Part shown: in pieces, positions 30,569 through 54,820 of the stretch
Numbering within the stretch: position 1 is the first letter of the stretch
Layout: each line of letters starts with the position of its first letter
NCBI GenBank assembly: GCA_903908715.1
Contig: CAIVSY010000063.1
Span: 30,113 to 94,112 of the forward strand
DNA length: 64,000 bases
DNA from: an uncultured bacterium
GTDB lineage: Bacteria > Verrucomicrobiota > Kiritimatiellia > CAIKKV01 > CAITUY01
Direction: 5' to 3'
Translations under genes and position numbers: made by a program
Notes under the pieces: generated by a model
Told to the model about the DNA's origin: nothing
Databases searched by the model: none
Seen by the model: the letters and a program-made list of their open reading frames with translations, nothing else

Positions 30569-31912
30569 TCAAAAGGGAAGTTTGTATTCCTGGATTTTTC
30601 GTTGAATGGTGCGTGTGGAGACGCCAAGCTCATCCGCGGTAAGTTGACGGTTCCCATTATGGCGTCGAAGTGCGGACAATATAGCCGTTCTCTCGATTTC
30701 CACAAGCGTCATTCCAGCCGTCGTTGCAGAGGGAACTCCCGACCGGCCAAGCTGGATGGCATCAGGGCCTAGCATGCGGCTCCCCGCAAGAATAACAGCC
30801 GACTCGATAACGTTTCGCAATTCACGGATATTCCCGGGCCAGGTGTGGCCGCGCAGTTTGCTCCATGTCTCAGGCAGAATCCCGTCAATCTGCCGCCCGT
30901 GGTCGGCGCACGCCGCCTTCACAAAACGCAGGGCAAGCTCAGGGATATCCTCCATCCGCTCGCGCAAGGCAGGGATACGGATCGTGACGACCTGCAAGCG
31001 GTATAACAGATCATTCCGGAACTCCCCGGCTGCGACCAATTCCTCGAGATCACGATTCGAGGCCGCCACAATACGGCAATCCACCTTGACGGGCGCTCGC
31101 CCGCCTACACGCAGAACCTCCCTGTGTTCCAGCACCCGCAACAGACGGGCTTGGACCGACTTGGGCGCAATTCCAACCTCATCCAGGAAAAGGGTCCCGC
31201 CCTCCGCCCTCTCAAACGCGCCTGCGTGGCGCTCGGATGCACCCGTAAAGGCTCCCTTTTCATGCCCGAACAACTCCGATTCAAGCAGGGACTCCGTGAA
31301 CGCTCCACAGTTGACTGCCACAAAGGGGCCTTCAGCCCGGCGACTGTCGACATGTAAGGCCCGCGCTACAAGCTCCTTGCCGGTTCCACTCTCGCCCAGG
31401 ATCAGGACTGTGGCATTCGTATCCGCCACGGATGCAATCTGCTTCAGAATCTCCTGCATCCTGCCGGATGCCGCCACCATGGAACGGGCACTATGCCGCA
31501 CACGCATCTCGTCACTCAGGCGGGCCACCTCCGAACGCAGTCGACTGGCTTCCACAGCCCTCCGTATCTTGACTTGAAGGTCTTCCAGATCGAGAGGCTT
31601 GACCAGATAATCATAACCACCATGATGCAAAGCGCTTACAGCGGTATCCACGGATCCGTAAGCCGTCATGATAAGGATAGGAATCGAAGGCTTCTGTCGC
31701 CGCACTGCGTCGAGGACCTTCAGGCCGTCCACATCCGGAAGAACGAGATCCGAAAGCACAACCTGAATGCTTTCACGAAGAGCCAAATCAATCCCCGACT
31801 GCCCGGTAGCCGCCGTGAGAACCTTGTAGCCGCAATCCCGTATCGCATCCTCAACGGACCGCCTGCCGTCAGGATCATCCTCGATAACAAGAATGGTCGG
31901 TTCTCTATTCAC
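30569..31912 (-). CDS. sigma54-dependent response regulator (REC-AAA+-Fis HTH, NtrC family)
   Basis: VIEDD, SDL (phospho-Asp), GESGTGKE, ESELFGHEKGAFTGA, FLDE, WPGNIREL, HTH. Confidence 0.94.
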   Translation of the reverse strand: MNREPTILVIEDDPDGRRSVEDAIRDCGYKVLTAATGQSGIDLALRESIQVVLSDLVLPDVDGLKVLDAVRRQKPSIPILIMTAYGSVDTAVSALHHGGYDYLVKPLDLEDLQVKIRRAVEASRLRSEVARLSDEMRVRHSARSMVAASGRMQEILKQIASVADTNATVLILGESGTGKELVARALHVDSRRAEGPFVAVNCGAFTESLLESELFGHEKGAFTGASERHAGAFERAEGGTLFLDEVGIAPKSVQARLLRVLEHREVLRVGGRAPVKVDCRIVAASNRDLEELVAAGEFRNDLLYRLQVVTIRIPALRERMEDIPELALRFVKAACADHGRQIDGILPETWSKLRGHTWPGNIRELRNVIESAVILAGSRMLGPDAIQLGRSGVPSATTAGMTLVEIERTAILSALRRHNGNRQLTADELGVSTRTIQRKIQEYKLPF

Positions 31913-38487: not shown

Positions 38488-38496
38488 ACGTATACC

Positions 38497-40167: not shown

Positions 40168-40188
40168 GATTTCCCTCCCTCTTCATCC

Positions 40189-41622
40189 TTACTCCAGATT
40201 CAATAGCAGAGTTGCCGTCTCCAACGCATCCTTACCCGTCATCCGGCTGACATCAAGCGGGTAATGCCCCGAAAAACACGCCGTGCAGTACCTCCCCGCA
40301 TTGGAGAAAGGCGTAAGCAATCCCTCCAGGCTCAAATATCCGAGACTGTCCGCCCCCGTGAACCGACGTGTCTCCTCCACACTGTGGCGCGCAGCAATCA
40401 ATTCATCCCTCGTCGCAAAGTCGATCCCGAAAAAACAGGGGTGTATCGTCGGCGGGCACGATATCCTGAGGTGGATTTCCTTTGCACCCGCATCCCGCAA
40501 GGCACTGACCCGGCGGCGCGATGTCGTTCCCCGTATAATGGAATCATCCACCACGACCACCCGCTTGCCCTTGACCACGTTCCCGATGACCGCCAACTTC
40601 ATATCCACACTGCGGGCCCGTTCCTCCGCCGAAGGCATGATAAAGGTCCGCCCCACATAATGGTTCCGCATGAAACCGAAATCCAACGGGATCCCGCTCT
40701 GCCGCGAATATCCCAGGGCGGCTGAATTCCCGCTGTCCGGAACGGATGTAACCAAATCCGCCTCCACCGGATGTTCCTGCGCCAACCGCATGCCAAGCCG
40801 GACACGGGTTTCATGCACATTCTGACCAAACAACAGGCTGTCCGGACGCGCAAAATACACATGCTCGAACACGCACTGCGAGACGCCCGCACCGCCTCCT
40901 TCGGCAAACCAGCTTGAATGCATTCCGCTGGCATCCACCACCACCAGTTCGCCCGGCTCAACATCCCGGATATACTCGGCGCCAACCTGCGTCAGGGCAC
41001 AGGTTTCGCTCGCAAACAAGTATCCCGACCCCAAGCGTCCAATGGATAGCGGCTTGAACCCCAATGGGTCGCGCGCCGCCATCAGGCAGTCCTTCGTCAT
41101 CAACAGAAACGAAAACGCGCCCTTGAGTTCACTCAGGGCGCGTGCAACCCGTCTCGGACGGGCCCGGAACATCGGATCGGCAAGCAAATGGACCAATACC
41201 TCGCTGTCGGTGCTGGTCTGGAAGATCGCCCCCGACTCCTGGTACATCCGCCGCAAGGATTGGGCATTAACCAGATTCCCGTTGTGGGCAATGGCCCAAA
41301 TGCCGTCACTGCACTCCACCACCAGAGGTTGGACATTCTGGATGCGGGGGGAACCCGTGGTGGAATAACGCACATGCCCGATGCCTAGATGCCCGGGCAA
41401 CTGCCGGATGCGATCCGCTGGAAAAACATCGTTTACAAGGCCGAGCCCCTTGATGGACCGTACCTGCGTTCCATCCGAGGTCACAATACCCGCACTCTCC
41501 TGCCCCCGGTGCTGCAAGGCAAACAACCCGGCATGAATCAACGGGGCTACGTCCGGTATGCCGTAGACTCCGCAGACTCCGCACGCCTCCCGTGGCCGAT
41601 CTTCGAACGCATTGCCATTCAT
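40189..41622 (-). CDS. purF: Amidophosphoribosyltransferase (propeptide / Fe-S type)
   Basis: REACG, LQHRGQESAG, GHVRYST, AHNGN, VPDSG, VVVDDSIIRGTT, YCTACF. Confidence 0.97.
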   Translation of the reverse strand: MNGNAFEDRPREACGVCGVYGIPDVAPLIHAGLFALQHRGQESAGIVTSDGTQVRSIKGLGLVNDVFPADRIRQLPGHLGIGHVRYSTTGSPRIQNVQPLVVECSDGIWAIAHNGNLVNAQSLRRMYQESGAIFQTSTDSEVLVHLLADPMFRARPRRVARALSELKGAFSFLLMTKDCLMAARDPLGFKPLSIGRLGSGYLFASETCALTQVGAEYIRDVEPGELVVVDASGMHSSWFAEGGGAGVSQCVFEHVYFARPDSLLFGQNVHETRVRLGMRLAQEHPVEADLVTSVPDSGNSAALGYSRQSGIPLDFGFMRNHYVGRTFIMPSAEERARSVDMKLAVIGNVVKGKRVVVVDDSIIRGTTSRRRVSALRDAGAKEIHLRISCPPTIHPCFFGIDFATRDELIAARHSVEETRRFTGADSLGYLSLEGLLTPFSNAGRYCTACFSGHYPLDVSRMTGKDALETATLLLNLE

Positions 41623-41677
41623 AGTTGCGCCCTCTCTCCGCACGGGGCGGCATGTTTACACCGTCCCACGCCACTAC

Positions 41678-43144
41678 TCAAGAACATTCTTCCCCGCCGG
41701 ACTCGCCGGAAATCCCGCGGGAATCCAGATAAGCCTCTATCCCGGCCGCAGCCTGCCGCCCGTCACGAATCGCCCTCACCACCAGGGATGCTCCCATCGA
41801 CATGTCGCCCGAAACAAAAATCCCCGGAACATTGGTCATGTTGGCGGCATCCCTCCAGATTACGCCCCCCGTTCCCGTACGAAGCCCGAGGTCTGCAATC
41901 ATGCGGTTCGGCTTCGGACCGGTAAACCCCATCGCCAGCAGAACCAGATCGGCCTTCCATTCGCGGTCCGATCCCGGCACCTCACGCATGACAGGCCGCA
42001 CGGCCCCGGTCGGTGTCGCCCACTCGACATCCACCGTGCAAACCGCCGTCACCCTGCCGTTGGCCCCCTTGAACTTCTTTGTGGCCACAGCCCAATGCCG
42101 CTCGCAGCCTTCCTTGTGACTGCTGGATATACGCATCACGTACGGCCACATCGGCCACGGCGTCGACTCCGAACGCACGGGCGGCGGCTGGGGCAGAATC
42201 TCCACCTGCTTCACCTGGACCGCCCCCTGCCGGATCGCGGTCCCCACGCAATCGGATCCGGTGTCACCACCGCCGATTACAAGCACAGACTTGCCATCCG
42301 CAAGGATCGCACGATCCGGGTCAACGGACTCACCTGCTAAACGTCGATTCTGCTGTGTCAGATAGTCCATGGCGAAGTGGATTCCCGCCAGTTCCCGCCC
42401 AGGAACCGCCAGATCCCGCGGTTGTCTCGCGCCCGCACACAGGCAGATGGCATCAAAGCGGCCCCGCAGGTAGTGATAGGACAGATCCTCGCCAACCCGC
42501 ACACCCATTTCGAAGTCGACACCCTCCGCCTCCATCAGCGCGATCCTCCGGTCCACAATAACCTTCTCGAGCTTGAACTCCGGAATGCCATAACGCAGGA
42601 TTCCGCCCGCCCGGGCTGCGCTGTCGTACACAACCACCCGGAACCCGCGACGGTTGAGCGTATCGGCCACCGCCAATCCCGCAGGACCCGAACCGATAAC
42701 CGCCACACGCTCCCCCCGCCGTACAGCTGGCGGCCGCGGCTTCACCAATCCCAGTTCAAAGGCGCGTTCAATAATGGCCAGTTCGATCTGCCGGATGGTC
42801 ACCGGCTCGCGGTTAATCCCGAGCACACAGGAACCCTCGCAGGGGGCCGGGCAAATGCGCCCGGTGAACTCCGGGAAGTTGTTGGTTGCCAACAGCACCT
42901 CCAACGCATCCCGCCATCGGCCGTGATAAACATGGTCATTCCATTCCGGAATCACATTCTGCAAGGGACAACCACAGCCATGGCAAAAAGGAGTCCCGCA
43001 GTCCATACAACGAGCGGCCTGCTCCGTGATCCCGTCCTCCGCGAACCGCAGTTCCACGGCACGATAGTCCCGTACCCGGTCCTGGACCGGGCGATAGCCC
43101 GGTTCCTTCCTGCCGTATTCCATGAACCCCGTGGGCTTACCCAT
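41678..43144 (-). CDS. gltD: Glutamate synthase small subunit
   Basis: QAARCMDCGTPFC, NNFPEFTGRICPAPCE, GSGPAGL, GGGDTGSDC, GASLVV.AI. Confidence 0.97.
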   Translation of the reverse strand: MGKPTGFMEYGRKEPGYRPVQDRVRDYRAVELRFAEDGITEQAARCMDCGTPFCHGCGCPLQNVIPEWNDHVYHGRWRDALEVLLATNNFPEFTGRICPAPCEGSCVLGINREPVTIRQIELAIIERAFELGLVKPRPPAVRRGERVAVIGSGPAGLAVADTLNRRGFRVVVYDSAARAGGILRYGIPEFKLEKVIVDRRIALMEAEGVDFEMGVRVGEDLSYHYLRGRFDAICLCAGARQPRDLAVPGRELAGIHFAMDYLTQQNRRLAGESVDPDRAILADGKSVLVIGGGDTGSDCVGTAIRQGAVQVKQVEILPQPPPVRSESTPWPMWPYVMRISSSHKEGCERHWAVATKKFKGANGRVTAVCTVDVEWATPTGAVRPVMREVPGSDREWKADLVLLAMGFTGPKPNRMIADLGLRTGTGGVIWRDAANMTNVPGIFVSGDMSMGASLVVRAIRDGRQAAAGIEAYLDSRGISGESGGEECS

Positions 43145-46100
43145 GGACCACCTCCGCCCGCTCCGTCGCCTCGTCCTCGCGCATCATCTTTCCCAGCACG
43201 CGCCGGTATTCCATTGGAAAGACCTTTACAAAATAGGGCAGATGCTCCTCCCACCCGTCCAGAATCCGTCGCGCCTTGCGACTACCCGTGTATTCCATAT
43301 GCCGCCGGAGCATGGACCGGATCTCCTCCTGGTCCTTCGGGTCGGATACCATTTCAAGGTCAACCATATCCAAATTGCACCGGCTGTCGAAACTCCTGTC
43401 CTCGTCATAGACATAGGCCAGACCGCCGCTCATTCCAGCCGCGAAATTAACCCCCGTCCGTCCGAGGACAATGACACGTCCGCCTGTCATGTATTCGCAT
43501 CCATGGTCTCCCACTCCTTCCACGACCGCATGAGCTCCGCTGTTCCGTATGGCAAATCGCTCACCAGCGCGTCCGCAAATATACATCTCCCCGCAGGTGG
43601 CCCCGTAAAGAAGAACATTCCCCGCGATCACGTTCTCCGAAGGGTCGAAACCGGCCGATCCACCCGTCTTGAGAATAATCCGGCCTCCGGACAGCCCCTT
43701 GCCCACATAATCGTTGGCCTCACCCTCAAGAACCATCGTCATCCCCCGAACACACCACGCACCGAAACTCTGCCCCGCCGCACCTTGGAAGACAAGGGTC
43801 ACCGTATCCTCAGGGAGACCCTTGTGACCATGGCGACGGGCAATCTCCCCGGCAATCATGGTCCCCACCGTCCTATTCACATTGCGTATCGGAGAGGATA
43901 TCTGGACGGGATTTCCCCCTTCGATCGACTCCCGAACCCGTGGCATCAAGGCAAGATCCAGCGCCTGATCCAGTTCGTGATCCTGCCGCTCCATGCACCG
44001 GACCGGTCCCCCGGTTTGAGGGCGATAGAGAATACCGGAATAATCAAGCCCCCTCGCCTTCCAAAAGGCAATGGCATCGTTCATCTCCAGCAGGTCAGAA
44101 CGTCCCACCATCTCATCCACCGTGCGGATTCCCAGACTGGCCATGATTCCACGGGCCTCTTCAGCCACATAGGTCAGGAATCTCTGCAGGTACTCCGGCT
44201 TGCCAGCAAAACGCTTGCGCAATTCGGGATCCTGTGTCGCCACACCCACCGGACATGTATTGCTGTGGCACTTTCGCATCATGACACAACCCATCACCAC
44301 CAATGCCGTGGTGGCGAACCCGAATTCCTCGGCCCCGAGCAGAGCGGCAACAACCACATCACGTCCGGTCTTGATCTGGCCATCCGTCTGCAACCGGACC
44401 CGGCCACGCAGGTTATTCAGGACCAGCGTCTGCTGGGTTTCGGCCAATCCAAGCTCCCAGGGAACCCCCGCATGCTTGATGGAGGAGAGCGGAGATGCCC
44501 CTGTGCCCCCATCATAACCGCTGATGAGGATCATGTCCGCCTTAGCCTTTGCCACACCGGCCGCAATCGTGCCCACTCCCAGTTCCGAAACCAGCTTGAC
44601 CGAGACCCGGGCTCCACTGTTGATGTTCTTGAGGTCATAAATCAGCTGCTTGATGTCCTCGATCGAATAGATGTCATGGTGCGGCGGCGGCGAAATCAAG
44701 GTCACACCCGGCGTGGAATGACGGACACGGCCGATCTCATCGTCGACCTTATGCCCCGGCAACTGCCCGCCCTCCCCCGGCTTTGCTCCCTGGGCAATCT
44801 TGATCTGTAATTCCCGTGCATGGACGCAGTATTCCGCCGTTACACCGAACCGTCCGCTGGCAACCTGCTTAATGGCGCTGCAACGGCTGTCTCCGTTTGG
44901 AAGCGGAATATACCGGCCTGGATCCTCCCCACCCTCCCCGCTATTGCTCATGCCGCCCAAACGGTTCATGGCAATAGCAATCGTCTCATGCGCCTCACGG
45001 CTGATGGACCCGTAGGACATGGCGCCCGTGACAAATCGCTTGACGATCGCAGCCGCCGGTTCAACCTCCTCGACAGGCACGGGCAAGGCAGTCTTGAACC
45101 GGAACATTCCCCGAAGGGTGAACTGCCGCTCCGCCTGCTCATTGATCAACCGCGCGTATTCACGATACAAGGCAACATCATCCTGGCGGGTTGCCTGCTG
45201 CAGTTTGCTGATGGCATCCGGACTCCAGAGATGCCGCTCCCCATCCACCCGGTAGCGGTAATGGCCACCCGCAGTCAATAATTCCGGGGCATTCAAATGT
45301 CCTGCCCAAGCCTCGGTATGGCGCGCACAGGCCTCCGCGGCAATGCCGTCCAAGCCAATCCCTCCCACACGTGACGCAGTCCCCTCAAAATAGCGGTCAA
45401 CCACCTCGCGCTTCAGGCCGACGGCCTCAAATACCTGGGCGCTCCGGTAACTGCGCAGGGTGGAAATCCCCATCTTGGACATGACTTTCCGCAATCCCTC
45501 CTGTAGCGAAGCCACATAGTTTTCCAATGCCCTCGCCACACCGATATCCGCGCTTAACTCGCGCCGCTTGGCCATCGAAGCGACAATTTCAAACGCCATA
45601 TAGGGGTTCACGGCTGTCGCGCCATACCCCAGCAGCAGCGCCATATGCATCACCTCACGCGCATCCCCTGTCTCGAGCAGGATACCCACACCCGTTCTGC
45701 GGCCATCACGAATCAGCCGGCGATTGACCGCTGATGTCGCCAGAAGCGACGGAATCGGAACCTCGTCCACAGTGAGGCCCCGATCGCTGAGGATGATCAG
45801 GTTCGTGCCCTCACGCACCGCCTGCTCCACCTCGTTCCCGAGCCGCTCAAGGGCCGCCTCAAGGCGCATCCCCCCTTCCCCACGGGGAAACCCGATACGA
45901 AACGCCTTTACGCTGAAATCAGGAAGATTCAGGTCCCGGATCCGCGCCAGGTCCTCGTTGGAAAGAATGGGATGCCGTAACTTGATCAAGCGCGCATGCT
46001 GGGGAACTTCCGAGAGGATATTGGATGGATTCCCGATGAACGTCATCAGCGACATCACCAGTTCTTCGCGAATCGGATCAATCGGCGGATTGGTCACCTG

Positions 46101-47690
46101 CGCAAACATCTGCTTGAAATACGAGAACAGCAACTGCGGCTGATCCGAAAAAACCGCCAGCGGCGTGTCCGTCCCCATCGAACCCACCGGCTCATGCGCC
46201 TTGGAAGCCATCGGTTCGAGTATCATCTGCAGGTCCTCACGCGTATAACCGAACAAACGCTCCCGCCGCAACAAGGTCGATTCATCCGGATTCACCGGGG
46301 CCATTGCCTCGAACAAGCCTTGCACAAGGACCTTGTTTTCCTCCACCCAGCGCCGATAGGGTTGTTGACGCACCACCCGGCTCTTGATCTCACGGTCCTT
46401 GATGACCCGCCCGCTTTCGAAATCCACCAACAGCATCTGGCCGGGGCGCAAGGCTCCTTTCTCCTTGACCCGATCGACGGGAATGTCCAGCACCCCTGCC
46501 TCGGACGCCATGACCATGAAACCATCCCGTGTGAGAGTGTAGCGAGCGGGCCGTAGGCCATTGCGATCCAATAGCGTGCCGACCCGTAATCCATCGGTGA
46601 ACGCAACCGTTGCCGGACCATCCCAGGGCTCCATGAGGCCCGCGTGATACTCAAAAAAACCCTTCTGGTCAGGCCCCACGGGATATTTCGCGCCCCATGC
46701 TTCGGGTATGAGCATCATCATGGCATGCGGCATGGACCGGCCGGCCGCTGTCAACATCTCCAGCGCATTATCCAGGCAGGCGGAATCACTACCACCCGGG
46801 TCAATGATTGGCAGCAACTTCCGCATGTCGTCACCGAAAAGCAACGAGTGCATCTGCCGCTCGCGGGCCCGCATCTGGTTAAGATTGCCACGCAGGGTAT
46901 TAATCTCGCCGTTATGCGCCAGCATCCTGAACGGCTGCGAAAGTTCCCAGGAAGGAAAGGTGTTGGTACTGTAACGCTGGTGGAGAACCGCAACCGCACT
47001 CTGCACACGTTGGTCATTCAGTTCCGTGTAGAACCCCGACACCTGCCCCCCCATGAGCAATCCCTTGTAAACCACCGTCCGGGCAGAAAAGCTGACCACA
47101 TAAAAGCGCTCCCTTGGCCCCAGCAGTTCCGCAACCTTGCGCTGGACAATCTTGCGGACAACCAGCAGCTTGCGATCCAACGCCTCACCCGTCAGGCCAT
47201 TCCCCCCCACAAAAACCTGCATGACCAAAGGGCAATCCCGGCGGGCAAGTTCCCCCAAAATCGCCTGATCCGTGGGGACTTCCCGCCAACCCAGCAGGGT
47301 AACCCCTTCCACACGAAGCACAGACTCCATGACGGCCATACATTGTTTGCGAACCGCAGTCTGGGGCACAAACAACATGCCAACTCCATAGGCACCTCCA
47401 TCCGGCAAGGCGAACCCCAGTCGCTCCGCCTCCTCCCGGTAAAAGGCGTCCGGAACCTGAATCAGGATTCCAGCACCATCCCCCGTCGTCTGATCCCCTC
47501 CCACAGCCCCGCGGTGAAGCAGGTTCTTCAGGACCTCAATACCGTCCCGTATGATTGCATGACTGGGTTTCCCCTCGATATTCGCGACAAACCCCACCCC
47601 GCAACTGTCGTGTTCCTGAAGCGGGTCATACAATCCCTGGGCCGGAGGCAAGCCGTACTGGCCACCCTCCTTGCTGGATACATCCGTCAT
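43137..47690 (-). CDS. gltB: Glutamate synthase large subunit
   Basis: EHDSCGVGF (Ntn Cys), HQRYSTNT, AHNGEIN, GAKPGEGGQLPG, CVMMRKCHSNTCPVG, EGVGDHGCEYMTGG. Confidence 0.98.
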   Translation of the reverse strand: MTDVSSKEGGQYGLPPAQGLYDPLQEHDSCGVGFVANIEGKPSHAIIRDGIEVLKNLLHRGAVGGDQTTGDGAGILIQVPDAFYREEAERLGFALPDGGAYGVGMLFVPQTAVRKQCMAVMESVLRVEGVTLLGWREVPTDQAILGELARRDCPLVMQVFVGGNGLTGEALDRKLLVVRKIVQRKVAELLGPRERFYVVSFSARTVVYKGLLMGGQVSGFYTELNDQRVQSAVAVLHQRYSTNTFPSWELSQPFRMLAHNGEINTLRGNLNQMRARERQMHSLLFGDDMRKLLPIIDPGGSDSACLDNALEMLTAAGRSMPHAMMMLIPEAWGAKYPVGPDQKGFFEYHAGLMEPWDGPATVAFTDGLRVGTLLDRNGLRPARYTLTRDGFMVMASEAGVLDIPVDRVKEKGALRPGQMLLVDFESGRVIKDREIKSRVVRQQPYRRWVEENKVLVQGLFEAMAPVNPDESTLLRRERLFGYTREDLQMILEPMASKAHEPVGSMGTDTPLAVFSDQPQLLFSYFKQMFAQVTNPPIDPIREELVMSLMTFIGNPSNILSEVPQHARLIKLRHPILSNEDLARIRDLNLPDFSVKAFRIGFPRGEGGMRLEAALERLGNEVEQAVREGTNLIILSDRGLTVDEVPIPSLLATSAVNRRLIRDGRRTGVGILLETGDAREVMHMALLLGYGATAVNPYMAFEIVASMAKRRELSADIGVARALENYVASLQEGLRKVMSKMGISTLRSYRSAQVFEAVGLKREVVDRYFEGTASRVGGIGLDGIAAEACARHTEAWAGHLNAPELLTAGGHYRYRVDGERHLWSPDAISKLQQATRQDDVALYREYARLINEQAERQFTLRGMFRFKTALPVPVEEVEPAAAIVKRFVTGAMSYGSISREAHETIAIAMNRLGGMSNSGEGGEDPGRYIPLPNGDSRCSAIKQVASGRFGVTAEYCVHARELQIKIAQGAKPGEGGQLPGHKVDDEIGRVRHSTPGVTLISPPPHHDIYSIEDIKQLIYDLKNINSGARVSVKLVSELGVGTIAAGVAKAKADMILISGYDGGTGASPLSSIKHAGVPWELGLAETQQTLVLNNLRGRVRLQTDGQIKTGRDVVVAALLGAEEFGFATTALVVMGCVMMRKCHSNTCPVGVATQDPELRKRFAGKPEYLQRFLTYVAEEARGIMASLGIRTVDEMVGRSDLLEMNDAIAFWKARGLDYSGILYRPQTGGPVRCMERQDHELDQALDLALMPRVRESIEGGNPVQISSPIRNVNRTVGTMIAGEIARRHGHKGLPEDTVTLVFQGAAGQSFGAWCVRGMTMVLEGEANDYVGKGLSGGRIILKTGGSAGFDPSENVIAGNVLLYGATCGEMYICGRAGERFAIRNSGAHAVVEGVGDHGCEYMTGGRVIVLGRTGVNFAAGMSGGLAYVYDEDRSFDSRCNLDMVDLEMVSDPKDQEEIRSMLRRHMEYTGSRKARRILDGWEEHLPYFVKVFPMEYRRVLGKMMREDEATERAEVVHG

Positions 47691-47714
47691 GGCTAGCGTC
47701 TCCTGAATAGCTTA

Positions 47715-47738
47715 GGGCGCCCGGTAAACCGGGCGCCC
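47715..47738. repeat. Perfect GC-rich inverted repeat between glnA and gltB
   Basis: GGGCGCCCGGT-AA-ACCGGGCGCCC; no U-tract on the minus strand. Confidence 0.75.
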
Positions 47739-47780
47739 ATTCATGCGATTCCCAAACCGTTGCGGTCTGCCATTCAACCG

Positions 47781-49904
47781 TCATCGGTAGAACAGCATGT
47801 CCGCATACGTCGGCAGCGGCCAGTAACCCGATCCCATCACGGGTTCAACGGCATCCGCAACCCTGCGCAATGCCGACATGGCAGGCATCACACCATCCCG
47901 GAAGGAGACCGCCCTTTCCGGAGCGTGTTTTTCCGACATAGCCTTGCCAACGGCCAGTTCCAGATCATCGATCGCCGTCGCCAGCTCAGCGGCACTCCCG
48001 TTCAGGCGCCTCAGCAATGAAGCCTGCGCCGCCGGTGTCTCCCCCGCCGCCTCAACCGCATTCATCCCGACTGCCACATCCCCGGCAAACTTGACCACCG
48101 CCGGCAGGATCTCCCGACGCGCCATCTGCAACATCGTCCTGGCCTCGATCGCAATGGTCTTGGCGTAGTTCTCCAGCAGGATCTCGTGCCGGGCCTTGAT
48201 CTCACCCTTGGTCAACGTGCCGTGCTTGACGAGGACGGCCACGTTGTCCTTTTCCTGCATCGCGTTGATACCGTCCACACAATTGCGGATGTTCGGGAGA
48301 CCCCGCCGGCCTGCCTCCTCCACCCAGGCAGCGGAATAGTTGTCGCCGTTGAACACTATCGCCTCATGTTCCTTGGCGTACTCCTGCAACAGCTTCTGGA
48401 CGCGCGAATTGACGTCCTTCACCCCCTCGAGGTTGTCGGCAATCTCCATCAACGTATGGGCCACAATCGTGTTCAGGACGAAATTCGGCCCCGAAAGCGA
48501 CTGCGAGGAACCCGCCATGCGGAACTCGAACTTGTTGCCGGTGAATGCGAACGGCGATGTACGGTTCCGGTCCGTCGTGTCCTTGGGGATCGCAGGCAGA
48601 TGCGAAACCCCAAGCATCAACCGCCCACCCTGCTTGGACCGGTTCGCTCCACCTTCCCGCAACTGGGATAGAATATCCGTCAACTGATCCCCGAGAAAAA
48701 TCGACACAATCGCCGGCGGAGCCTCGTTGGCACCCAACCGGTGGTCGTTGCCCGGCGTTGCCACGGTCGCCCGCAACAGGCTGGAATACTTATGCACCGC
48801 CCGAATCACCGCCATCAGGAATACCAGAAACTGCATGTTGTCGTGAGGGGTGCTTCCCGGATTCAGCAGGTTGATCCCGTCATCGGTCCCGATCGACCAG
48901 TTATTGTGCTTCCCGGATCCGTTCACACCAGCAAAAGGCTTCTCGTGGAGCAGGCAGATGAACCCATGCCTGCGAGCTGTACGCTGCAGAACTTCCATCG
49001 TCAGCTGATTATGATCCACACCGATGTTGACGGTTGCGAAAACCGGGGCAATCTCATGCTGGGCCGGAGCCACCTCGTTATGCTGGGTCTTCGCCAGGAC
49101 CCCCAGTTTCCACAGCTCCTCGTTCAGATCCGCCATGAAGGACGCCACCCGCTCATGCAGAGTACCGAAGTACTGGTCCTCCATCTCCTGCCCTTTCGGT
49201 GGCGGCGCCCCGAACAGGGAGCGCCCGGCAAAACGCAGATCCGCCCGGCGCTCCACAAACTGACGATCGATCAGGAAATACTCCTGTTCCGCACCCAAAG
49301 TGGCGGTCACCCTTCGGCTCGTCGTATTCCCCAATGCCCGCAGCACGCGCGTGGCCTGGTTATTTAACGCCTCCATAGACCGTAACAAAGGGGTCTTTTT
49401 GTCCAGCGCCTCCCCCGTGTAGGACGCAAAGGATGTGGGAATGAAAAGCGTGATGTTCTTCCCGTCCCGCTTGATGAATACCGGCGACGTGCAATCCCAT
49501 ACCGTGTATCCACGCGCCTCAAAAGTCGCACGAATGCCGCCGGACGGGAACGAGGATGCATCCGGCTCGCCCTGCGTCAATTCCTTGCCGCTGAATTCCA
49601 TCATGATCCGGCCGTCGCTCGTCGGCGAAATGAATGAATCATGCTTCTCAGCCGTGATCCCGGTCATGGGCTGGAACCAGTGACAGAAATGCGTAGCCCC
49701 CTTTTCCACCGCCCAGTCCTTCATGGCATTCGCCACCACGTCAGCCACCGCGGGATCCAACTCCCGCCCTTCCTCAATCGTAGCCTTGAGCCTGCGATAT
49801 ATGTTCTTCGGCAACCGCTCCCTCATGACCGCATCGTTGAAAACATTCGAACCGAAAACCTCGGGAAGCCCCGACTCTTGCGTTGTCTCATTTCCGTTTT
49901 TCAT
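47781..49904 (-). CDS. glnA: Glutamine synthetase type III
   Basis: [88 protein letters not shown] before ATG 49904; an in-frame ATG also lies at 49976. Confidence 0.96.
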
Positions 49905-50021
49905 ACTGGCTCCTTCTTGCATCACAACTGCGTACGTGTCCCCTAACTTATACACCAACCCAACCCGGTTGACCATGAGGTTTCCTGACCGGATCGCCTA
50001 AAAAAGCACGATGGATGACTG

Positions 50022-50037
50022 AGCAACAAGCGTGCCA
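50022..50037 (-). promoter_or_regulatory. sigma54 (-24/-12) promoter for glnA-gltBD
   Basis: Minus strand TGGCAC-GCTTG-TTGCT, a full match to TGGCAC-N5-TTGCW (GG-N10-GC). Confidence 0.85.
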
Positions 50038-50100
50038 GATATTAAAACGAGCAAAATCCACCCGAAAATCGATACAAGAGCGGGCAGCTAACGAATCAGA

Positions 50101-50150
50101 TGCTACAGATTTGTAACACAACCGCTCTCTTTGCTTCATTTTTGAATGCA
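50101..50150. promoter_or_regulatory. Candidate enhancer (activator-binding) palindromes
   Basis: TGCTACA-GATT-TGTAACA (50101-50118) and TGCTTCA-TTTT-TGAATGCA (50132-50150), between the two sigma54 promoters. Confidence 0.45.
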
Positions 50151-50277
50151 CGTGCAAACATCACTAATGGAAATCGGAGGGATAACAGGTTGAGTCCCAT
50201 GCAGAATTGCCGCTTCGGACGCTAACGCCCTCTGGAAATTGACCTCCAAAGGATTTCATGAGGGGAAACCGTTGCAT

Positions 50278-50293
50278 TGGCACAACTCTTGCA
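50278..50293 (+). promoter_or_regulatory. sigma54 (-24/-12) promoter for the PEP-synthase-like gene
   Basis: TGGCAC-AACTC-TTGCA, full consensus, 33 nt upstream of ATG 50326. Confidence 0.85.
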
Positions 50294-50325
50294 TAGACCT
50301 CCTGTAACGAACCGAAAGAACAGCT

Positions 50326-52950
50326 ATGAAAGGAAAACCGTCCACCCGAAACAAGCTCCCCCACTTCAGCACAGGATTACCTTCGCTCGATTCCACCCTG
50401 AACGGCCTTCTACCAGGGGATAACGTCGTATGGCAAGTCGACGAAATCAACGAGTACCGCCCGTTCGTTGACCGATTCATCGATTACAGCCGTACACTGG
50501 ATACCCCGATCGTCTACTTCCGGTTTGCCAGCCATCGCCCCTTGATTCCGGAAAATTCAGGCGTGGAAATCCATCCCGTGGAACCCGGCATGGGTTTTGA
50601 ACCCTTCGTCGGGGAAATCCTGGATGTGATCGAGCAGAAGGGTCGTGGCGCTTTGTACGTGTTCGACAGTTTGTCCGAATTGGCGGCTGACTGGTACAGC
50701 GATCGCATGCTGGGGAATTTCTTCATGATCACATGCCCCTTCCTGTTCCAACTCGACACCATCACGTACTTCGCACTGCTCAGCAATCATCATTCCTTCC
50801 ACGCCATCGACAGCATCCACCAGACAGCGCAGGTCGTTATCAATGTACACCGGAACCGGGAGCGGGTATTCATTCATCCACTAAAAGTGGAGAAGCGGTC
50901 TTCACCAACTCTGTACATGCTGCACGAATGGGAACGGGATGATTCCTTCATACCTGTCAGCGCGAGTACCACAATCGCCGAAATCATGGCCAGGGCTCCT
51001 CAGCCCTGGCTGGATTTTGCGGCAACCCGTCCCGGCATCTGGATGCAAACCGTCCTCCGGGCCCGCAAATCCATGGAGTCCTCCTTCGGCGGTTCCGGAT
51101 CACTGAAGGAAACCCAGGAATCCTTTCAACGTCTCCTGCGTGGCGCCATCACACGGGACGCCCGATTCCTGCCTCTGACCCGAAGATACTTCGACCTGCC
51201 GGATCTGCTTGCCATCATCCAGCGGATGATTGGCACAGGCCTCATTGGCGGCAAGGCACTCGGCATGCTGCTGGCCCGCGCCATTATCCGCAAGCATTCC
51301 CCGGAACTGCATGCTCGCATGGAGCCGCATGACTCTTTCTATATCGGCTCGGACGTCTTCTACACCTACCTCGTTCAAAACGGTTGCTGGGAACTGAGAC
51401 GCAAGGCCACCGACTTGAATTTCCTCATGGAGCAGAACGAGGCAACACAACGGAAGCTTATGTCCGGTTCCTTTCCAGACTATATCCGACGGCAGTTTTC
51501 GGAAATGCTGGACTACTTCGGGCAGGCACCCATCATTGTCCGCTCAAGTTCACTGCTCGAGGACAGCTACGGGAATGCCTTCTCCGGGAAGTATGAGACG
51601 GTCTTTTGCGCCAACCAGGGCAACCCTGCGCAACGCCTTGAATCGTTCATGCAGGCTGTACGCACCGTGTATGCCAGCACATTGAGCCCCGAAGCCCTCT
51701 CCTACAGGCACCAGCGCGGCCTTCTCGATCGGGACGAACAAATGTCCCTCCTGGTCCAACGGGTTTCCGGTGACCGCCACGGCACCAATTACTTCCCCCA
51801 GGTTGCCGGCGTTGGCTTCTCCTTCAATCCTTTCGTCTGGAATGAGGATATTGACCCGAAAGCCGGCATGATCCGGTTGGTCTTTGGTCTCGGCACCCGC
51901 GCCGTGGACCGGACAGGCGATGACTACACCCGCCTGATCGCCCTGAATGCGCCCGAAAAGAGACCCGAAGGCGCCCCGGGTGACTCGATCCGCTATTCGC
52001 AGCATAATGTCGATGTCCTCGACCTCTCCGAAAATCAGCTCAAGGAGAAATCGATCGCCGAGGTACTCCATGATCTTCCTGGAAGATTCCCTCAGGACCT
52101 GTTCTTTGACCGGCACGGCACACCCATCGCATCAGGGCATGAGTTCTGGCACACCACCTTCAACCGCATGATCCGCGAGACGCCATTTGTGGCCGACATG
52201 CGAGCCGTGCTGGAAATCGTTCAGGATGCCTATGAGCATCCTGTCGATATCGAATTCACCGCAAACTTCTCCAGCGCTTCGGATTACCGCATCAATCTGG
52301 TACAATGCCGGCCATTCCAGGTCCGCATCACGGGAAGCAGCGACCGCCTGCGTTCTCCGTCCACCCTCCGCCGGCAGGATATCCTCCTCGAAAGCGGCGG
52401 ACCGATCATAGGGCAAAGCGCATCAACCCCGGTCGACCGGCTGGTGCTCGTTGTGCCTGCGGTATATGGAAGAATGACCGTCAACGAACGATATGCCGTG
52501 GCGCGCGCCATAGGCAAACTGAACCGCCTGGCTGCATCCGGGCCAGCCATGACGCTCATGCTAGTCGGTCCTGGGCGTTGGGCCACCACCACACCCGCGC
52601 TGGGCATCCCCGTCTCCTTTGCTGAAATAAATGCAGCATCGATCGTCTGTGAGATTGCCGCCATGCACGAGGGCTTGATCCCGGACGTCTCGCTGGGCAC
52701 CCATTTCTTTAACGACCTCGTTGAAATGAACATGCTGTACCTTGCGGTTGCTCCTGACCGCAAGGGGCACAACGTGAACAGTTCCCTGATCACCAGCTTA
52801 CCGAACAAACTGACAACCCTCCTGCCACAGTCATCAGGCTTGGAGCAAGTCCTCTGGGTGGTCGACAGCGTGGATATCGCGGGCGGTGCGCGACTGTATC
52901 TGCATGCCGACAGCTTCAAGCAAAAAGCCGTTGTCTACCTTTCCCGATAA
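50326..52950 (+). CDS. PEP/pyruvate-binding (PPDK_N ATP-grasp) domain protein with a degenerate RecA/KaiC-like N-terminus; not a canonical PEP synthase
   Basis: STGLPSLD..LNGL..GDNVV and YVFDSLS (KaiC-like); IGGKA, VRSSSLLED...FSGKYET, LLVQRV, VAGVGFS, GLGTRAV, DIEF, VQCRP (ATP-grasp); C-terminal GPGRW...SLGTHFF. No TIM-barrel PEP domain is recognisable. Confidence 0.85.
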   Translation: MKGKPSTRNKLPHFSTGLPSLDSTLNGLLPGDNVVWQVDEINEYRPFVDRFIDYSRTLDTPIVYFRFASHRPLIPENSGVEIHPVEPGMGFEPFVGEILDVIEQKGRGALYVFDSLSELAADWYSDRMLGNFFMITCPFLFQLDTITYFALLSNHHSFHAIDSIHQTAQVVINVHRNRERVFIHPLKVEKRSSPTLYMLHEWERDDSFIPVSASTTIAEIMARAPQPWLDFAATRPGIWMQTVLRARKSMESSFGGSGSLKETQESFQRLLRGAITRDARFLPLTRRYFDLPDLLAIIQRMIGTGLIGGKALGMLLARAIIRKHSPELHARMEPHDSFYIGSDVFYTYLVQNGCWELRRKATDLNFLMEQNEATQRKLMSGSFPDYIRRQFSEMLDYFGQAPIIVRSSSLLEDSYGNAFSGKYETVFCANQGNPAQRLESFMQAVRTVYASTLSPEALSYRHQRGLLDRDEQMSLLVQRVSGDRHGTNYFPQVAGVGFSFNPFVWNEDIDPKAGMIRLVFGLGTRAVDRTGDDYTRLIALNAPEKRPEGAPGDSIRYSQHNVDVLDLSENQLKEKSIAEVLHDLPGRFPQDLFFDRHGTPIASGHEFWHTTFNRMIRETPFVADMRAVLEIVQDAYEHPVDIEFTANFSSASDYRINLVQCRPFQVRITGSSDRLRSPSTLRRQDILLESGGPIIGQSASTPVDRLVLVVPAVYGRMTVNERYAVARAIGKLNRLAASGPAMTLMLVGPGRWATTTPALGIPVSFAEINAASIVCEIAAMHEGLIPDVSLGTHFFNDLVEMNMLYLAVAPDRKGHNVNSSLITSLPNKLTTLLPQSSGLEQVLWVVDSVDIAGGARLYLHADSFKQKAVVYLSR

Positions 52951-53065: not shown

Positions 53066-54820
53066 CTATTCACGCGTGTCAAGGAAACGGTACAAGGTAG
53101 CTCTCGATACACCCAGAAGTCGGGCAGCCTCCACCTTGTTCCCTTGCGTCTTCTCCAGCGCCTCCCGTACCGCTTCATCATCCAGGCGCAAGCGCCCTTT
53201 CGGCCCCGGCCCCCCCTCGGCTGCAACCAATCCGCGCATCGGCGCCAAGGCCACCGGCGGGAGATGCTCCGGCAGGATGCTGTCCCCTTTACACTTGATC
53301 AGGGCAAATTGGATCCAATTCTGCAATTCACGGACATTCCCGGGCCAGTCGTAGCCCAGCATGACATCCATCGCCTCTGCCGAAAAACTCATCTTGCGGC
53401 GCACCCCTCCCTCGGTCAGGCGCGAAAGGAAATGATTCGCCAGAAGCGGAATGTCATTCCGACGATCCCTTAAAGGAGGAACCGTGAGAGGCACCACACT
53501 CAACCGGTAGTACAGGTCCTCCCGGAAGCGCCCTTCCGCCATTTCACGGCGCAAATCCTTGTTCGTGGCGCTGATGACCCGCACATTGACCTTGAGTGTC
53601 TTCTCCCCGCCAACCCGCTCAAAGGCGCCTTCCTGCAGGACACGCAGAAGCTTGACCTGCATGGCGGTTGATATATCCCCGATCTCATCCAGGAAAATCG
53701 TGCCGCCGTCCGCCAGCTCAAAGCGGCCTTTCTTGTCACGCACCGCCCCTGTGAAAGCACCGCGAACATGCCCGAACAACTCACTTTCAAGCAACCCTTC
53801 CGGCAGAGCGCCACAATTGACCGGAACGAACAATTTTGTGCCTCGCGGCCCCTCGTTATGCAGGGCCGCAGCAATCAGTTCCTTCCCGGTTCCGCTTTCC
53901 CCCTGGATCAGGACCGGTGCGGCAGACTCGGCAAGTTCCGGGATCAGGTCATACAGGGCAAGCATCTTGGTGTCCCGCCCGATGATGCCCGCAAACTGCT
54001 GGATCTCTCCCAGTCTCCTTGCCAGTTGCTGCTCACGCGTCATGTCCCTGAAACATGCCAGCACAGCCGTTTGCCGCCCCCCGGGGTCCCGTACAGCCGT
54101 TACCGTCATCTCGATCCGTCGCCGCTCGCCCGACGCCGTGGCAATTTCGACTTCCCGAAGCACATCCTTCGAAGGCGGCACCATGCCTTCACAAAAGGCA
54201 CACTTTCCACCACACAGGCCGCCCGCCATGACCTCATGACAGTCCTGGTTGATCACATCCTCACGTCTATAGCCTGTGATCCTCTCTGCAGCCTTGTTGA
54301 ATCCCAGGATCCGCCGATTGAGGTCATGGATAATCACCCCATCCGTCAAGTGATCCAAAATCAGTTCAGACTGCTCCCGGGCATGGAACAGAGCCGCAAG
54401 ATACCCATGCGAGAACAACTCATTGACCAATCCACGAACGATTGCCGCCAGGGCCCGGATAGCGTCCTGCCTGCCTGCCGGATCCCCGTCCCCCGCCGGA
54501 AGCCTTGCGATGTTCCAATGAAGACAAAGCGGATTCCCCGGAAGGTTCCGGCACTGCTCGGCCGCCTCGTCGCAAAGAGTGATGACCAGGTCATACTCTC
54601 TGCGCATCGCCTCATCACGCTGCACACCCGCTCCCGGATCCGGCAGATCGATCTCGCGTAACAACGCGGCAACAGCAGGATCAACCCCGGTATTATCCAA
54701 ACCGGCAAAAACGATTTCCTGGTCGGTCTTGCGATAGGACCGGGAAAACGCCGCAGCCAGAAAGCCTCGGCTCGCATCCCCTCCCGACACAAACAGGATC
54801 CTGTATCTTCTAGTTGCCAT
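53066..54820 (-). CDS. sigma54 enhancer-binding protein: ArsC/LMW-PTP-like domain + PAS + AAA+ + Fis HTH
   Basis: RILFVSGGDASR...DLVITLCDEAAEQC...LHW; DGVIIHD...FNKAAERITGY (PAS); GESGTGKE, GAFTGA, FLDE, WPGNVREL; HTH. AAGGA SD before ATG 54820. Confidence 0.9.
   Translation of the reverse strand: MATRRYRILFVSGGDASRGFLAAAFSRSYRKTDQEIVFAGLDNTGVDPAVAALLREIDLPDPGAGVQRDEAMRREYDLVITLCDEAAEQCRNLPGNPLCLHWNIARLPAGDGDPAGRQDAIRALAAIVRGLVNELFSHGYLAALFHAREQSELILDHLTDGVIIHDLNRRILGFNKAAERITGYRREDVINQDCHEVMAGGLCGGKCAFCEGMVPPSKDVLREVEIATASGERRRIEMTVTAVRDPGGRQTAVLACFRDMTREQQLARRLGEIQQFAGIIGRDTKMLALYDLIPELAESAAPVLIQGESGTGKELIAAALHNEGPRGTKLFVPVNCGALPEGLLESELFGHVRGAFTGAVRDKKGRFELADGGTIFLDEIGDISTAMQVKLLRVLQEGAFERVGGEKTLKVNVRVISATNKDLRREMAEGRFREDLYYRLSVVPLTVPPLRDRRNDIPLLANHFLSRLTEGGVRRKMSFSAEAMDVMLGYDWPGNVRELQNWIQFALIKCKGDSILPEHLPPVALAPMRGLVAAEGGPGPKGRLRLDDEAVREALEKTQGNKVEAARLLGVSRATLYRFLDTRE

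What the first reader, a model, noticed from the sequence alone, without database searches (positions are those of the whole stretch)
50022..50293. Back-to-back full-consensus sigma54 promoters sharing one upstream region
Seen: TGGCACGCTTGTTGCT (-) and TGGCACAACTCTTGCA (+) both match TGGCAC-N5-TTGCW, face outwards and lie 240 bp apart. Two such matches in a ~420-bp intergenic region are unlikely by chance. Inference: glnA and the dikinase-like gene are co-regulated from shared enhancer sites, which ties the unknown protein to N assimilation.
Basis: seen in the sequence. Interest (0 to 1): 0.72.

Follow-up and report, generated by a model that had tools for sequence, protein, structure and literature searches.

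The report
Two-way sigma-54 nitrogen control region
A 420-bp gap between genes in an uncultured lake bacterium holds two outward-facing sigma-54 promoters around one conserved pair of activator-binding sites; one promoter drives glutamine synthetase/glutamate synthase and the other an uncharacterised ATP-grasp protein, which ties that protein to nitrogen assimilation.

Summary
TGGCACGCTTGTTGCT (-, 50037..50022) and TGGCACAACTCTTGCA (+, 50278..50293) are the only exact TGGCAC-N5-TTGCW matches in 64 kb (0.05 expected). The (-) promoter drives glnN (type III glutamine synthetase)-gltB-gltD. The (+) promoter sits 48 nt before an 874-aa pseudo-KaiC/PPDK_N ATP-grasp protein. In three relatives (79-86% protein identity) the spacer DNA has diverged except for four blocks: both promoters and two 16-bp dyads (GYTWCA-N4-TGWARC) 31 bp apart. 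The glnN promoter plus dyad pair recurs in about 20 lineages. All 13 dyad pairs found in 1.76 Mb lie upstream of sigma-54 promoters of glnN or amtB-glnK, so they mark a nitrogen-regulon enhancer. The (+) promoter is specific to the window's clade and has no conserved sites of its own, so sharing the enhancer is the best reading but remains inferred. The ATP-grasp family is independently linked to GDH, GOGAT, GSIII, NrpR, Amt and PII across phyla. The activator is unresolved; the adjacent PAS-type enhancer-binding protein is a candidate with conflicting evidence. The architecture is of a known kind in a new lineage, with new cargo.

The parts
50022..50037 (-). Sigma-54 (-24/-12) promoter of glnN-gltBD: TGGCACGCTTGTTGCT. 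Predicted transcription start about 50011, giving a 5'UTR of about 107 nt.
   Evidence: Exact consensus match. In the 4-species alignment 11 of its 16 columns are invariant. An equivalent promoter lies upstream of GSIII in about 20 distinct loci, with variable spacers.
50102..50117 (.). Dyad A, GCTACAGATTTGTAAC (consensus GYTWCA-N4-TGWARC). Its centre is 98.5 bp from the predicted (-) start and 194.5 bp from the (+) start. Candidate enhancer (UAS) site.
   Evidence: 10 of 16 columns are invariant in the alignment. The dyad is conserved upstream of glnN promoters in many loci.
50133..50148 (.). Dyad B, GCTTCATTTTTGAATG, 31 bp (about 3 helical turns) from dyad A. Its centre is 129.5 bp from the (-) start and 163.5 bp from the (+) start.
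   Evidence: 11 of 16 columns are invariant. All 13 such dyad pairs in 1.76 Mb lie upstream of sigma-54 promoters of glnN or amtB-glnK.
50278..50293 (+). Sigma-54 (-24/-12) promoter of the PPDK_N-like gene: TGGCACAACTCTTGCA. Predicted transcription start about 50304, giving a 5'UTR of about 22 nt.
   Evidence: Exact consensus match. 15 of 16 columns are invariant, spacer included, in relatives with 79-86% protein identity. It is absent upstream of most other family members.
47781..49904 (-). glnN, type III glutamine synthetase (707 aa).
   Evidence: Pfam GSIII_N, Gln-synt_C and Gln-synt_C-ter.
41678..47690 (-). gltB (43137..47690) and gltD (41678..43144), the glutamate synthase large and small subunits, co-oriented behind glnN. 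The gaps are 90 nt and an 8-nt overlap. purF and pyrG follow.
   Evidence: Pfam. No terminator-like site at the gene junctions. The order GSIII-gltB-gltD is conserved in relatives.
50326..52950 (+). 874-aa uncharacterised protein with three parts: a P-loop-less KaiC/RecA-like N-terminal domain, a PPDK_N ATP-grasp domain, and an unassigned C-terminal domain with an invariant His793.
   Evidence: Pfam finds PPDK_N only. NCBIfam scores are far below the cut-offs. AlphaFold2 gives pLDDT 75.6. Foldseek matches the RPH/PEP synthase ATP-grasp domain and KaiC/FlaH.
53066..54820 (-). One-component enhancer-binding protein (bEBP, a sigma-54 activator) and candidate activator. Domains: degenerate LMW-PTP/ArsC-like domain, a PAS domain with CX9CX3CX2C, AAA+ with GAFTGA, and HTH_8.
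   Evidence: Pfam and NCBIfam. GAFTGA at residue 381 of the 611-aa ORF that starts at 54901. Orthologue contexts are; the alignment is.
30569..31912 (-). Second enhancer-binding protein, REC-AAA+-HTH_8 (an NtrC-family response regulator). Alternative candidate activator, and further evidence that the genome uses sigma-54.
   Evidence: GAFTGA. Pfam. NCBIfam scores are below every equivalog cut-off.

Best explanation
The 421-bp glnN/PPDK_N-like intergenic region is a bidirectional sigma-54 control region.

- Two closed-complex promoters face outwards.
- Between them lies one enhancer made of two 16-bp dyads (GYTWCA-N4-TGWARC) 31 bp apart, so both are on the same face of the helix.
- The dyads are centred about -99 and -130 from the glnN transcription start, and about -164 and -195 from the other start.
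- An enhancer-binding AAA+ activator assembles on the dyads, loops the DNA and remodels sigma-54 RNA polymerase.

The enhancer plus the glnN promoter is an old, lineage-wide nitrogen-regulon module. The same arrangement precedes glnN and amtB-glnK in relatives. The second promoter is a later addition in the window's clade. It places the uncharacterised pseudo-KaiC/ATP-grasp protein under sigma-54 control, most likely through the same enhancer, because no other conserved element exists in the region.

Shown by sequence and comparison: the motifs, their conservation, the dyads and their exclusive association with nitrogen operons.

Inferred: sigma-54 dependence, looping, sharing of the enhancer by the (+) promoter, and the identity of the activator. 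The adjacent PAS-type enhancer-binding protein is given about 40-50%.
For: - Specificity: these are the only two exact consensus sites in 64 kb (0.05 expected). Both are correctly oriented, 48 nt before the PPDK_N-like ATG and 133 nt before the glnN ATG.
- Footprint: in the alignment of the window with L081, L082 and L083, 47 of the 64 columns in four blocks are invariant, against 20 of about 387 columns elsewhere. The blocks are the two promoters and the two dyads.
- glnN promoter: it recurs in about 20 distinct loci with invariant TGGCA..TGC and variable spacers.
- Dyads: 13 dyad pairs (29-32 bp apart) occur in 1.76 Mb. Eleven precede sigma-54 glnN promoters and two precede sigma-54 amtB-glnK promoters; none lies elsewhere.
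- Phasing: insertions between dyads and promoters come in steps of about 11 or 21-23 bp.
- Sigma-54 use: two enhancer-binding protein genes with intact GAFTGA lie in the window.
- Alternatives absent: no sigma-70-like match in the region and no Rfam element.
- Nitrogen link: PPDK_N-like genes neighbour GDH (24 loci), gltB (23), gltD (19), GSIII, NrpR, Amt and PII; 46 of 84 loci have at least one.
- Independent recurrence: Fibrobacterota have sigma-54 promoters before PPDK_N-like-gltBD operons.
- Precedent: divergent sigma-54 promoters under one activator are known, for example zraP/zraSR (PMC4987338).
Against: - No transcription start site or expression data exist. No RNA run holds the sequence.
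No RpoN box is present in the window or the fetched loci.
- The (+) promoter is absent from most family members, including the next clade with the same divergent gene order (L003, L004, L005, L032).
- Its exact 16-mer GGCACAACTCTTGCAT also precedes a small ORF followed by rubredoxin, superoxide reductase and ferritin genes, next to an orthologous enhancer-binding protein in L173. That site has no nitrogen-type dyads, so a different enhancer or activator is possible.
- Helical phasing for the (+) side rests on only 4 sequences.
Confidence: 0.68

Rival explanations
1. Both are sigma-54 promoters but they are not co-regulated. The dyads serve only glnN, as part of the nitrogen regulon. The (+) promoter descends from the promoter that normally lies next to the PAS/Cys-rich enhancer-binding protein, and that protein, possibly a redox sensor, activates it through sites not yet recognised or from downstream.
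For: - The exact 16-mer GGCACAACTCTTGCAT occurs only in the window's clade and next to the orthologous activator in L173. There it drives a small ORF followed by rubredoxin, desulfoferrodoxin and ferritin genes. A chance match in 1.76 Mb is about 8e-4.
- The orthologues share a near-identical HTH and a conserved CX9CX3CX2C motif in the PAS domain.
- L172 has a similar arrangement.
- The (+) promoter is missing in other clades that keep the dyads.
Against: - No conserved block other than the dyads exists between or near the promoters in four species.
- The same activator orthologue lies directly upstream of the dyads and the glnN promoter in L167 and L169.
- The PPDK_N-like family is linked to nitrogen genes, not redox genes, across phyla.
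Confidence: 0.2
2. Only the glnN-side motif is a working promoter. The (+) motif binds sigma-54 polymerase non-productively or is a relic, and the PPDK_N-like gene is transcribed from an unrecognised housekeeping promoter, as in most other lineages.
For: Most homologues lack any sigma-54 motif upstream: 72 of 77 scanned at up to 2 mismatches (this scan missed the L081 promoter because the gene start was misplaced). Non-productive and intragenic sigma-54 sites are known in E. coli (PMC4591121 title and abstract).
Against: - 15 of 16 positions are invariant across four species in otherwise diverged DNA.
- The site keeps its position 47-71 nt before the start codon.
- No sigma-70-like match is present.
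Confidence: 0.08
3. Chance matches: the organism does not use sigma-54 at these sites.
For: rpoN was not seen, because it could not be searched for.
Against: - Only 0.05 matches are expected per window.
- The sites are conserved across many lineages.
- Two enhancer-binding protein genes with GAFTGA lie in the window.
Confidence: 0.02

Closest known systems
Enterobacterial glnAp2 with tandem NtrC enhancer sites
   Same: - A sigma-54 promoter drives glutamine synthetase.
- Two dyad sites lie about three helical turns apart, roughly 100-140 bp upstream. From my own knowledge, the E. coli sites are at -108 and -140.
- The site layout is hexamer, A/T-rich 4-mer, hexamer, as in the NtrC enhancer TGCACC(A/T)4TGGTGCA (PMC4987338).
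- The adjacent activator's HTH (EAARLLGVSRATLYRF) resembles NtrC's; this comparison is from memory and is a lead only.
   Different: - The enzyme is a type III glutamine synthetase, co-transcribed with gltBD.
- The half-sites are GTTACA/TGTAAC, not GCACC/GGTGC.
- The co-localised activator has no receiver domain, and no ntrB-like kinase is adjacent.
- A second outward-facing promoter is present.
- The lineage is in the PVC superphylum.
Divergent sigma-54 promoter pairs under one activator (zraP/zraSR with ZraR; hyc/hyp with FhlA)
   Same: Two outward-facing sigma-54 promoters lie in one intergenic region, with the activator sites between them (PMC4987338).
   Different: The cargo here is nitrogen assimilation genes and an uncharacterised protein. 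The activator gene is not one of the divergent units. Sharing is inferred, not shown.
PEP synthase, PPDK and rifampin phosphotransferase (dikinase superfamily), for the + strand gene
   Same: The PPDK_N ATP-grasp nucleotide-binding domain is shared.
   Different: There is no PEP-utilizers swivel domain and no PEP/pyruvate TIM barrel. A P-loop-less KaiC-like domain is added at the N-terminus. NCBIfam scores are 58 bits or less against cut-offs of 500-1350.

Membership tests
Sigma-54-dependent promoter | -24 GG and -12 GC elements with 10 nt between them (TGGCAC-N5-TTGC) | tested here: met
   Both sites match exactly. The (-) site also matches the extended YTGGCACG-N4-TTGCW form.
Sigma-54-dependent promoter | Upstream of a gene and oriented towards it, with conservation in orthologous regions | tested here: met
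   The (-) promoter is found in about 20 lineages. The (+) promoter is found in 4 species of one clade.
Sigma-54-dependent promoter | rpoN present in the genome | not testable with these tools
Indirect support: two enhancer-binding protein genes with GAFTGA lie in the window.
Sigma-54-dependent promoter | Transcription start about 12 nt downstream of the GC element, dependent on rpoN and an enhancer-binding protein | not testable with these tools
   No RNA runs hold the sequence. Only low-coverage lake metagenome DNA is available.
Enhancer (UAS) for an enhancer-binding protein | Dyad-symmetric sites 80-200 bp upstream, conserved and specific to co-regulated promoters | tested here: met
   Dyads A and B are conserved. 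All 13 dyad pairs in 1.76 Mb precede sigma-54 promoters of glnN or amtB-glnK.
Enhancer (UAS) for an enhancer-binding protein | Demonstrated binding by a specific activator | not testable with these tools
   The co-localisation evidence conflicts. Orthologues of the adjacent activator lie next to the dyads in L167 and L169, but next to dyad-less promoters in L172 and L173.
NtrBC/glnAp2 system | NtrC-type sites TGCACC-W4-TGGTGCA and a receiver-domain NtrC with NtrB | tested here: not met
   The half-sites differ. The adjacent activator has LMWPc-like and PAS domains and no REC domain. The REC-type activator at 30569..31912 scores below the NtrC cut-off and has no kinase gene beside it.
PEP synthase / PPDK dikinases | PPDK_N plus a phospho-His swivel domain (PEP-utilizers) plus a PEP/pyruvate-binding TIM barrel | tested here: not met
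   Only PPDK_N is detected. The PDB profile search matches the ATP-grasp part only. All NCBIfam equivalog scores are far below their cut-offs.

The most novel reading that the evidence does not exclude
Uncultured PVC-group bacteria, and possibly Fibrobacterota, may run ammonium assimilation through a so-far undescribed sigma-54 regulon. It would be defined by tandem GTTACA-N4-TGTAAC enhancers and governed by a one-component activator with a pseudo-phosphatase domain and a Cys-rich PAS domain, instead of NtrBC. The widespread pseudo-KaiC/ATP-grasp protein would be a member of that regulon and act as a new ATP-dependent controller or enzyme of the GS/GOGAT/GDH node.
Probability: 0.3. Interest if true: 0.75.

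Novelty: new member of a known kind. Interest (0 to 1): 0.5.

Why it matters
The architecture itself is textbook: sigma-54 promoters with an upstream enhancer, arranged divergently. Three things give it value.

- It is a well-supported prediction of how glutamine synthetase III and glutamate synthase are controlled in a barely studied, uncultured lineage. A 2025 survey describes sigma-54 control of glutamine synthetase as mainly a feature of Pseudomonadota (PMC12316311).
- It defines a searchable nitrogen-regulon motif: tandem GYTWCA-N4-TGWARC dyads followed by a -24/-12 promoter.
- It adds transcriptional-regulatory evidence, independent of gene neighbourhood, that a very widespread and highly conserved but uncharacterised three-domain ATP-grasp family belongs to nitrogen assimilation. 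The family is at least 50% identical across bacterial phyla and Methanomassiliicoccales archaea. That makes its function testable.

Tried and rejected
A regex for the RpoN box found nothing in the window or in 1.69 Mb of fetched relatives' loci. This is uninformative.
- RNA evidence: no RNA run holds the sequence. The DNA runs are 2-6x lake metagenomes whose short unitigs match perfectly but do not span the region.
- Rfam found no riboswitch or leader in 49700..50500.
- The sigma-70 consensus scan gave no hit in the intergenic region. That consensus may not apply to PVC bacteria.
- Other regulator sites were considered and dropped: NifA UAS (TGT-N10-ACA), NtcA (GTA-N8-TAC), TnrA/GlnR boxes, the NrpR operator (GGAA-N6-TTCC; one 3/4 half-match at 50235-50248, not conserved) and IHF sites. 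None fits or is conserved (reading).
- The third TWCA-N4-TGWA match in the window (22187) lies inside a coding region, so it was rejected as chance.
- The direct and inverted repeats from the repeat finder are not conserved in relatives.
- I tried to settle the activator by orthologue context, using all 12 contig look-ups. The result is mixed.
- Comparing HTH sequences between the PVC and Fibrobacterota activators was uninformative, because the Fibrobacterota genes are partly masked by N runs.

Full report
**Observation.** The two 16-mers are present as described. TGGCACGCTTGTTGCT lies on the - strand at 50037..50022, and TGGCACAACTCTTGCA lies on the + strand at 50278..50293. They are the only exact matches to TGGCAC-N5-TTGCW in the window. 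Shuffles expect 0.05 matches, and none of 100 gave two. With up to 2 mismatches the window is not enriched (42 observed, 33 expected), so these two sites stand out. The (-) site also fits the extended form CTGGCACG-N4-TTGCT.

**Genes.**
- On the - strand lies a type III glutamine synthetase, glnN (47781..49904). Its real start is the ATG at 49904, behind an AAGGAG ribosome-binding site.
- gltB (43137..47690), gltD (41678..43144), purF and pyrG follow it. Gaps are short and there are no terminator-like sites at the junctions.
- On the + strand lies an 874-aa protein (50326..52950) in which Pfam sees only PPDK_N.
- Convergent with it is a one-component sigma-54 activator (enhancer-binding protein, bEBP; 53066..54820). 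It has a weak LMW-PTP/ArsC-like domain, a PAS domain, an AAA+ domain with an intact GAFTGA, and HTH_8.
- A second activator of REC-AAA+-HTH_8 type lies at 30569..31912.
- Predicted transcription starts are about 50011 and about 50304, giving 5'UTRs of about 107 and about 22 nt.

**Source organism.** The window comes from a lake-water metagenome assembly. The closest named relatives are PVC-group, Victivallales and Kiritimatiellia MAGs.

**Conservation of the region.** I fetched three closer relatives through the 874-aa protein: L081 (86% identity), L082 (82%) and L083 (79%).
- Their intergenic DNA has diverged in sequence and length. Mean column identity is 54%, and the distance between the two predicted starts ranges from 227 to 293 bp.
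- Four blocks survive: the (-) promoter (11 of 16 columns invariant), dyad A at 50102-50117 (10 of 16), dyad B at 50133-50148 (11 of 16), and the (+) promoter (15 of 16, spacer included).
- Together these blocks hold 47 invariant columns out of 64. The remaining roughly 387 positions hold 20.

**The glnN promoter is old.**
- It is present in the next clade, which has the same divergent gene order (L001, L003, L004, L005, L032).
- Among metagenome GSIII genes at least 65% identical to the window's that had enough upstream sequence, 7 of 10 have it (L139, L084, L087, L089, L091, L092, L088).
- It is also present in L167 and L169, in two more distant GSIII loci (L115, L151) and in a Fibrobacterota locus (L074).
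- Across 20 sequences TGGCA and TGC never vary, while the spacer does. Part of this invariance comes from the search criteria.

**The dyads form a nitrogen-regulon enhancer.**
- Both dyads fit GYTWCA-N4-TGWARC and lie 31 bp apart.
- The same pair, 29-32 bp apart, lies 56-135 bp upstream of the -24 element of almost every glnN promoter found.
Eleven are these glnN sites. The other two (L088, L090) lie 75-100 bp upstream of sigma-54 promoters of amtB-glnK operons: TGGCACGGGGGTTGCA and TGGCATGGTAATTGCA.
- None lies anywhere else.
- In L001 a further, weaker pair precedes gltB.
- Length changes between dyads and promoters come in steps of about 11 or 21-23 bp. That fits face-of-helix constraints but rests on few sequences.
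- In layout (two dyads three helical turns apart, about -100 and -130 from the start, hexamer/A-T-rich 4-mer/hexamer) the module resembles the NtrC sites of glnAp2. The bases differ from the NtrC enhancer sequence given in PMC4987338.

**The (+) promoter is young.**
- Among 77 family members with enough upstream DNA, a sigma-54 motif precedes the gene only in the window's clade and, independently, in two Fibrobacterota loci (L058, L067). In those two loci the gene heads a PPDK_N-like-gltB-gltD operon.
- In the window's clade the only conserved elements upstream of it are the dyads. They lie 164 and 195 bp from its predicted start in the window, and 98-143 bp (dyad B) in the relatives, with similar helical phase.
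- Sharing of the enhancer is therefore the simplest reading. Divergent sigma-54 promoters under one activator are known, for example zraP/zraSR (PMC4987338). It is still an inference.

**Link of the unknown protein to nitrogen.**
- Across 84 loci from Verrucomicrobiota, Kiritimatiellia, Planctomycetota, Omnitrophota, Fibrobacterota, Spirochaetota, Elusimicrobiota, Deltaproteobacteria-type MAGs and Methanomassiliicoccales archaea, recurrent neighbours are glutamate dehydrogenase (24 loci), gltB (23), gltD (19), GSIII, NrpR (6), Amt (4) and PII (3). At least one is present in 46 loci. Cluster identities were checked with Pfam.
- The protein is very conserved (mean column identity 68%).
- No family member has a solved structure, and the only PDB matches are weak hits to the ATP-grasp domains of PEP synthase and rifampin phosphotransferase.
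- The AlphaFold2 model (pLDDT 75.6) combines a KaiC/FlaH-like domain without a P-loop, an ATP-grasp domain like those of rifampin phosphotransferase and PEP synthase, and a C-terminal domain of low confidence that carries an invariant His.
- It fails the membership test for true dikinases.
- Earlier notes of this scan reached the same neighbourhood conclusion. I re-derived it here.

**Which activator?** The evidence conflicts.
- For the adjacent PAS-type activator:
  - Its orthologues lie directly upstream of the dyads, the glnN promoter and GSIII-gltBD in L167/L168 and L169/L170.
  - They lie beside the PPDK_N-like/GSIII pair in the window and L082 (the same sequence as L165/L166).
  - They lie on the same contig in L081 (the same contig as L164).
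  - One-component activators usually lie next to their targets (PMC4641369).
- Against:
  - The truly conserved linkage is thyA, DFP/HD, then the activator gene. What follows varies.
  - In L172 and L173 it is a sigma-54 promoter driving a small ORF plus rubredoxin/rubrerythrin, superoxide reductase and ferritin genes, with no nitrogen-type dyads.
  - In L171, L174 and L175 no sigma-54 promoter follows at all.
  - All these orthologues have nearly the same HTH and a conserved CX9CX3CX2C motif in the PAS domain, which suggests a redox or metal sensor.
- Other observations:
  - L175 belongs to the same assembly as L001. That genome therefore has both the activator and the dyads, but on different contigs.
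  - The L173 promoter shares the exact 16-mer GGCACAACTCTTGCAT with the window's (+) promoter. These are the only exact occurrences in 1.76 Mb.
  - The (+) promoter may therefore descend from the activator-proximal promoter, for example by inversion of a promoter-gene segment. This is the basis of the main rival explanation.

**Limits.**
- There are no RNA data.
- Rfam and the sigma-70 scan gave nothing.

**Verdict.**
- The architecture is a new member of a known kind.
- Its main value is the nitrogen-regulon enhancer motif, together with the regulatory link it gives to an uncharacterised, widespread protein family.

Noticed in passing
window 50326-52950; loci L001-L083: The 874-aa pseudo-KaiC/PPDK_N family is at least 50% identical across many bacterial phyla and Methanomassiliicoccales archaea. 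Its recurrent neighbours are GDH, gltB, gltD, GSIII, NrpR, Amt and PII. Its function is unknown.
   Followed up: partly
L173:7899-7915 and window 50279-50294: The exact 16-mer GGCACAACTCTTGCAT of the (+) promoter also forms a sigma-54 promoter 117 nt after an orthologous activator gene in a distant relative. There it drives a 70-aa ORF followed by rubredoxin, desulfoferrodoxin, ferritin and DsbD genes. L172 has a similar arrangement with a different promoter sequence.
   Followed up: partly
window 53066-54820 (-): The adjacent sigma-54 activator has a conserved Cys motif, CX9CX3CX2C (CHEVMAGGLCGGKCAFC), in its PAS domain and a degenerate LMW-PTP/ArsC-like N-terminal domain. Its orthologues always follow thyA and a DFP/HD-domain gene.
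   Followed up: partly
L058:5714-5792, L067:5737-5815, L074:13728-13743: Fibrobacterota loci carry very similar dyads (for example GATACATTTCTGTATC and GGTACATTTATGTGCC, about 63 bp apart) upstream of sigma-54 promoters of PPDK_N-like-gltBD or GSIII. They lie next to amtB-glnK and a GAF-type sigma-54 activator. The motif may therefore be older than the PVC group, or convergent.
   Followed up: partly
window 49940-49950 (glnN leader, - strand sense GGTGTATAAG): A short element, GGTGTA(T)AAG, lies about 35-45 nt upstream of the glnN start codon. It is kept in the window, L082, L083 and, more loosely, L167. It could be the -10 element of a secondary housekeeping promoter or a leader signal.
   Followed up: no
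L001:3436-3482: A second dyad pair 31 bp apart lies between GSIII and gltB in L001. No canonical sigma-54 motif was found downstream of it.
   Followed up: partly
L006, L007, L012, L069, L070, L073: NrpR-family repressor genes (PF01995), best known from methanogens, lie next to GDH and the PPDK_N-like gene in Kiritimatiellia- and Planctomycetota-type MAGs.
   Followed up: partly
window 50146-50155: A perfect 10-bp palindrome, TGCACGTGCA, abuts dyad B. It is not conserved in L081-L083.
   Followed up: partly
window 1-64000: GC skew is strongly and uniformly negative (-0.11 to -0.20) over the whole window, at 56-60% GC.
   Followed up: no
window 35176-49904 (-): glnN-gltB-gltD-purF-pyrG and a 1103-aa ORF (not checked here) are co-oriented with short gaps. 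The sigma-54 transcript may therefore extend into glutamine-consuming biosynthetic genes. No junction terminators were seen.
   Followed up: partly
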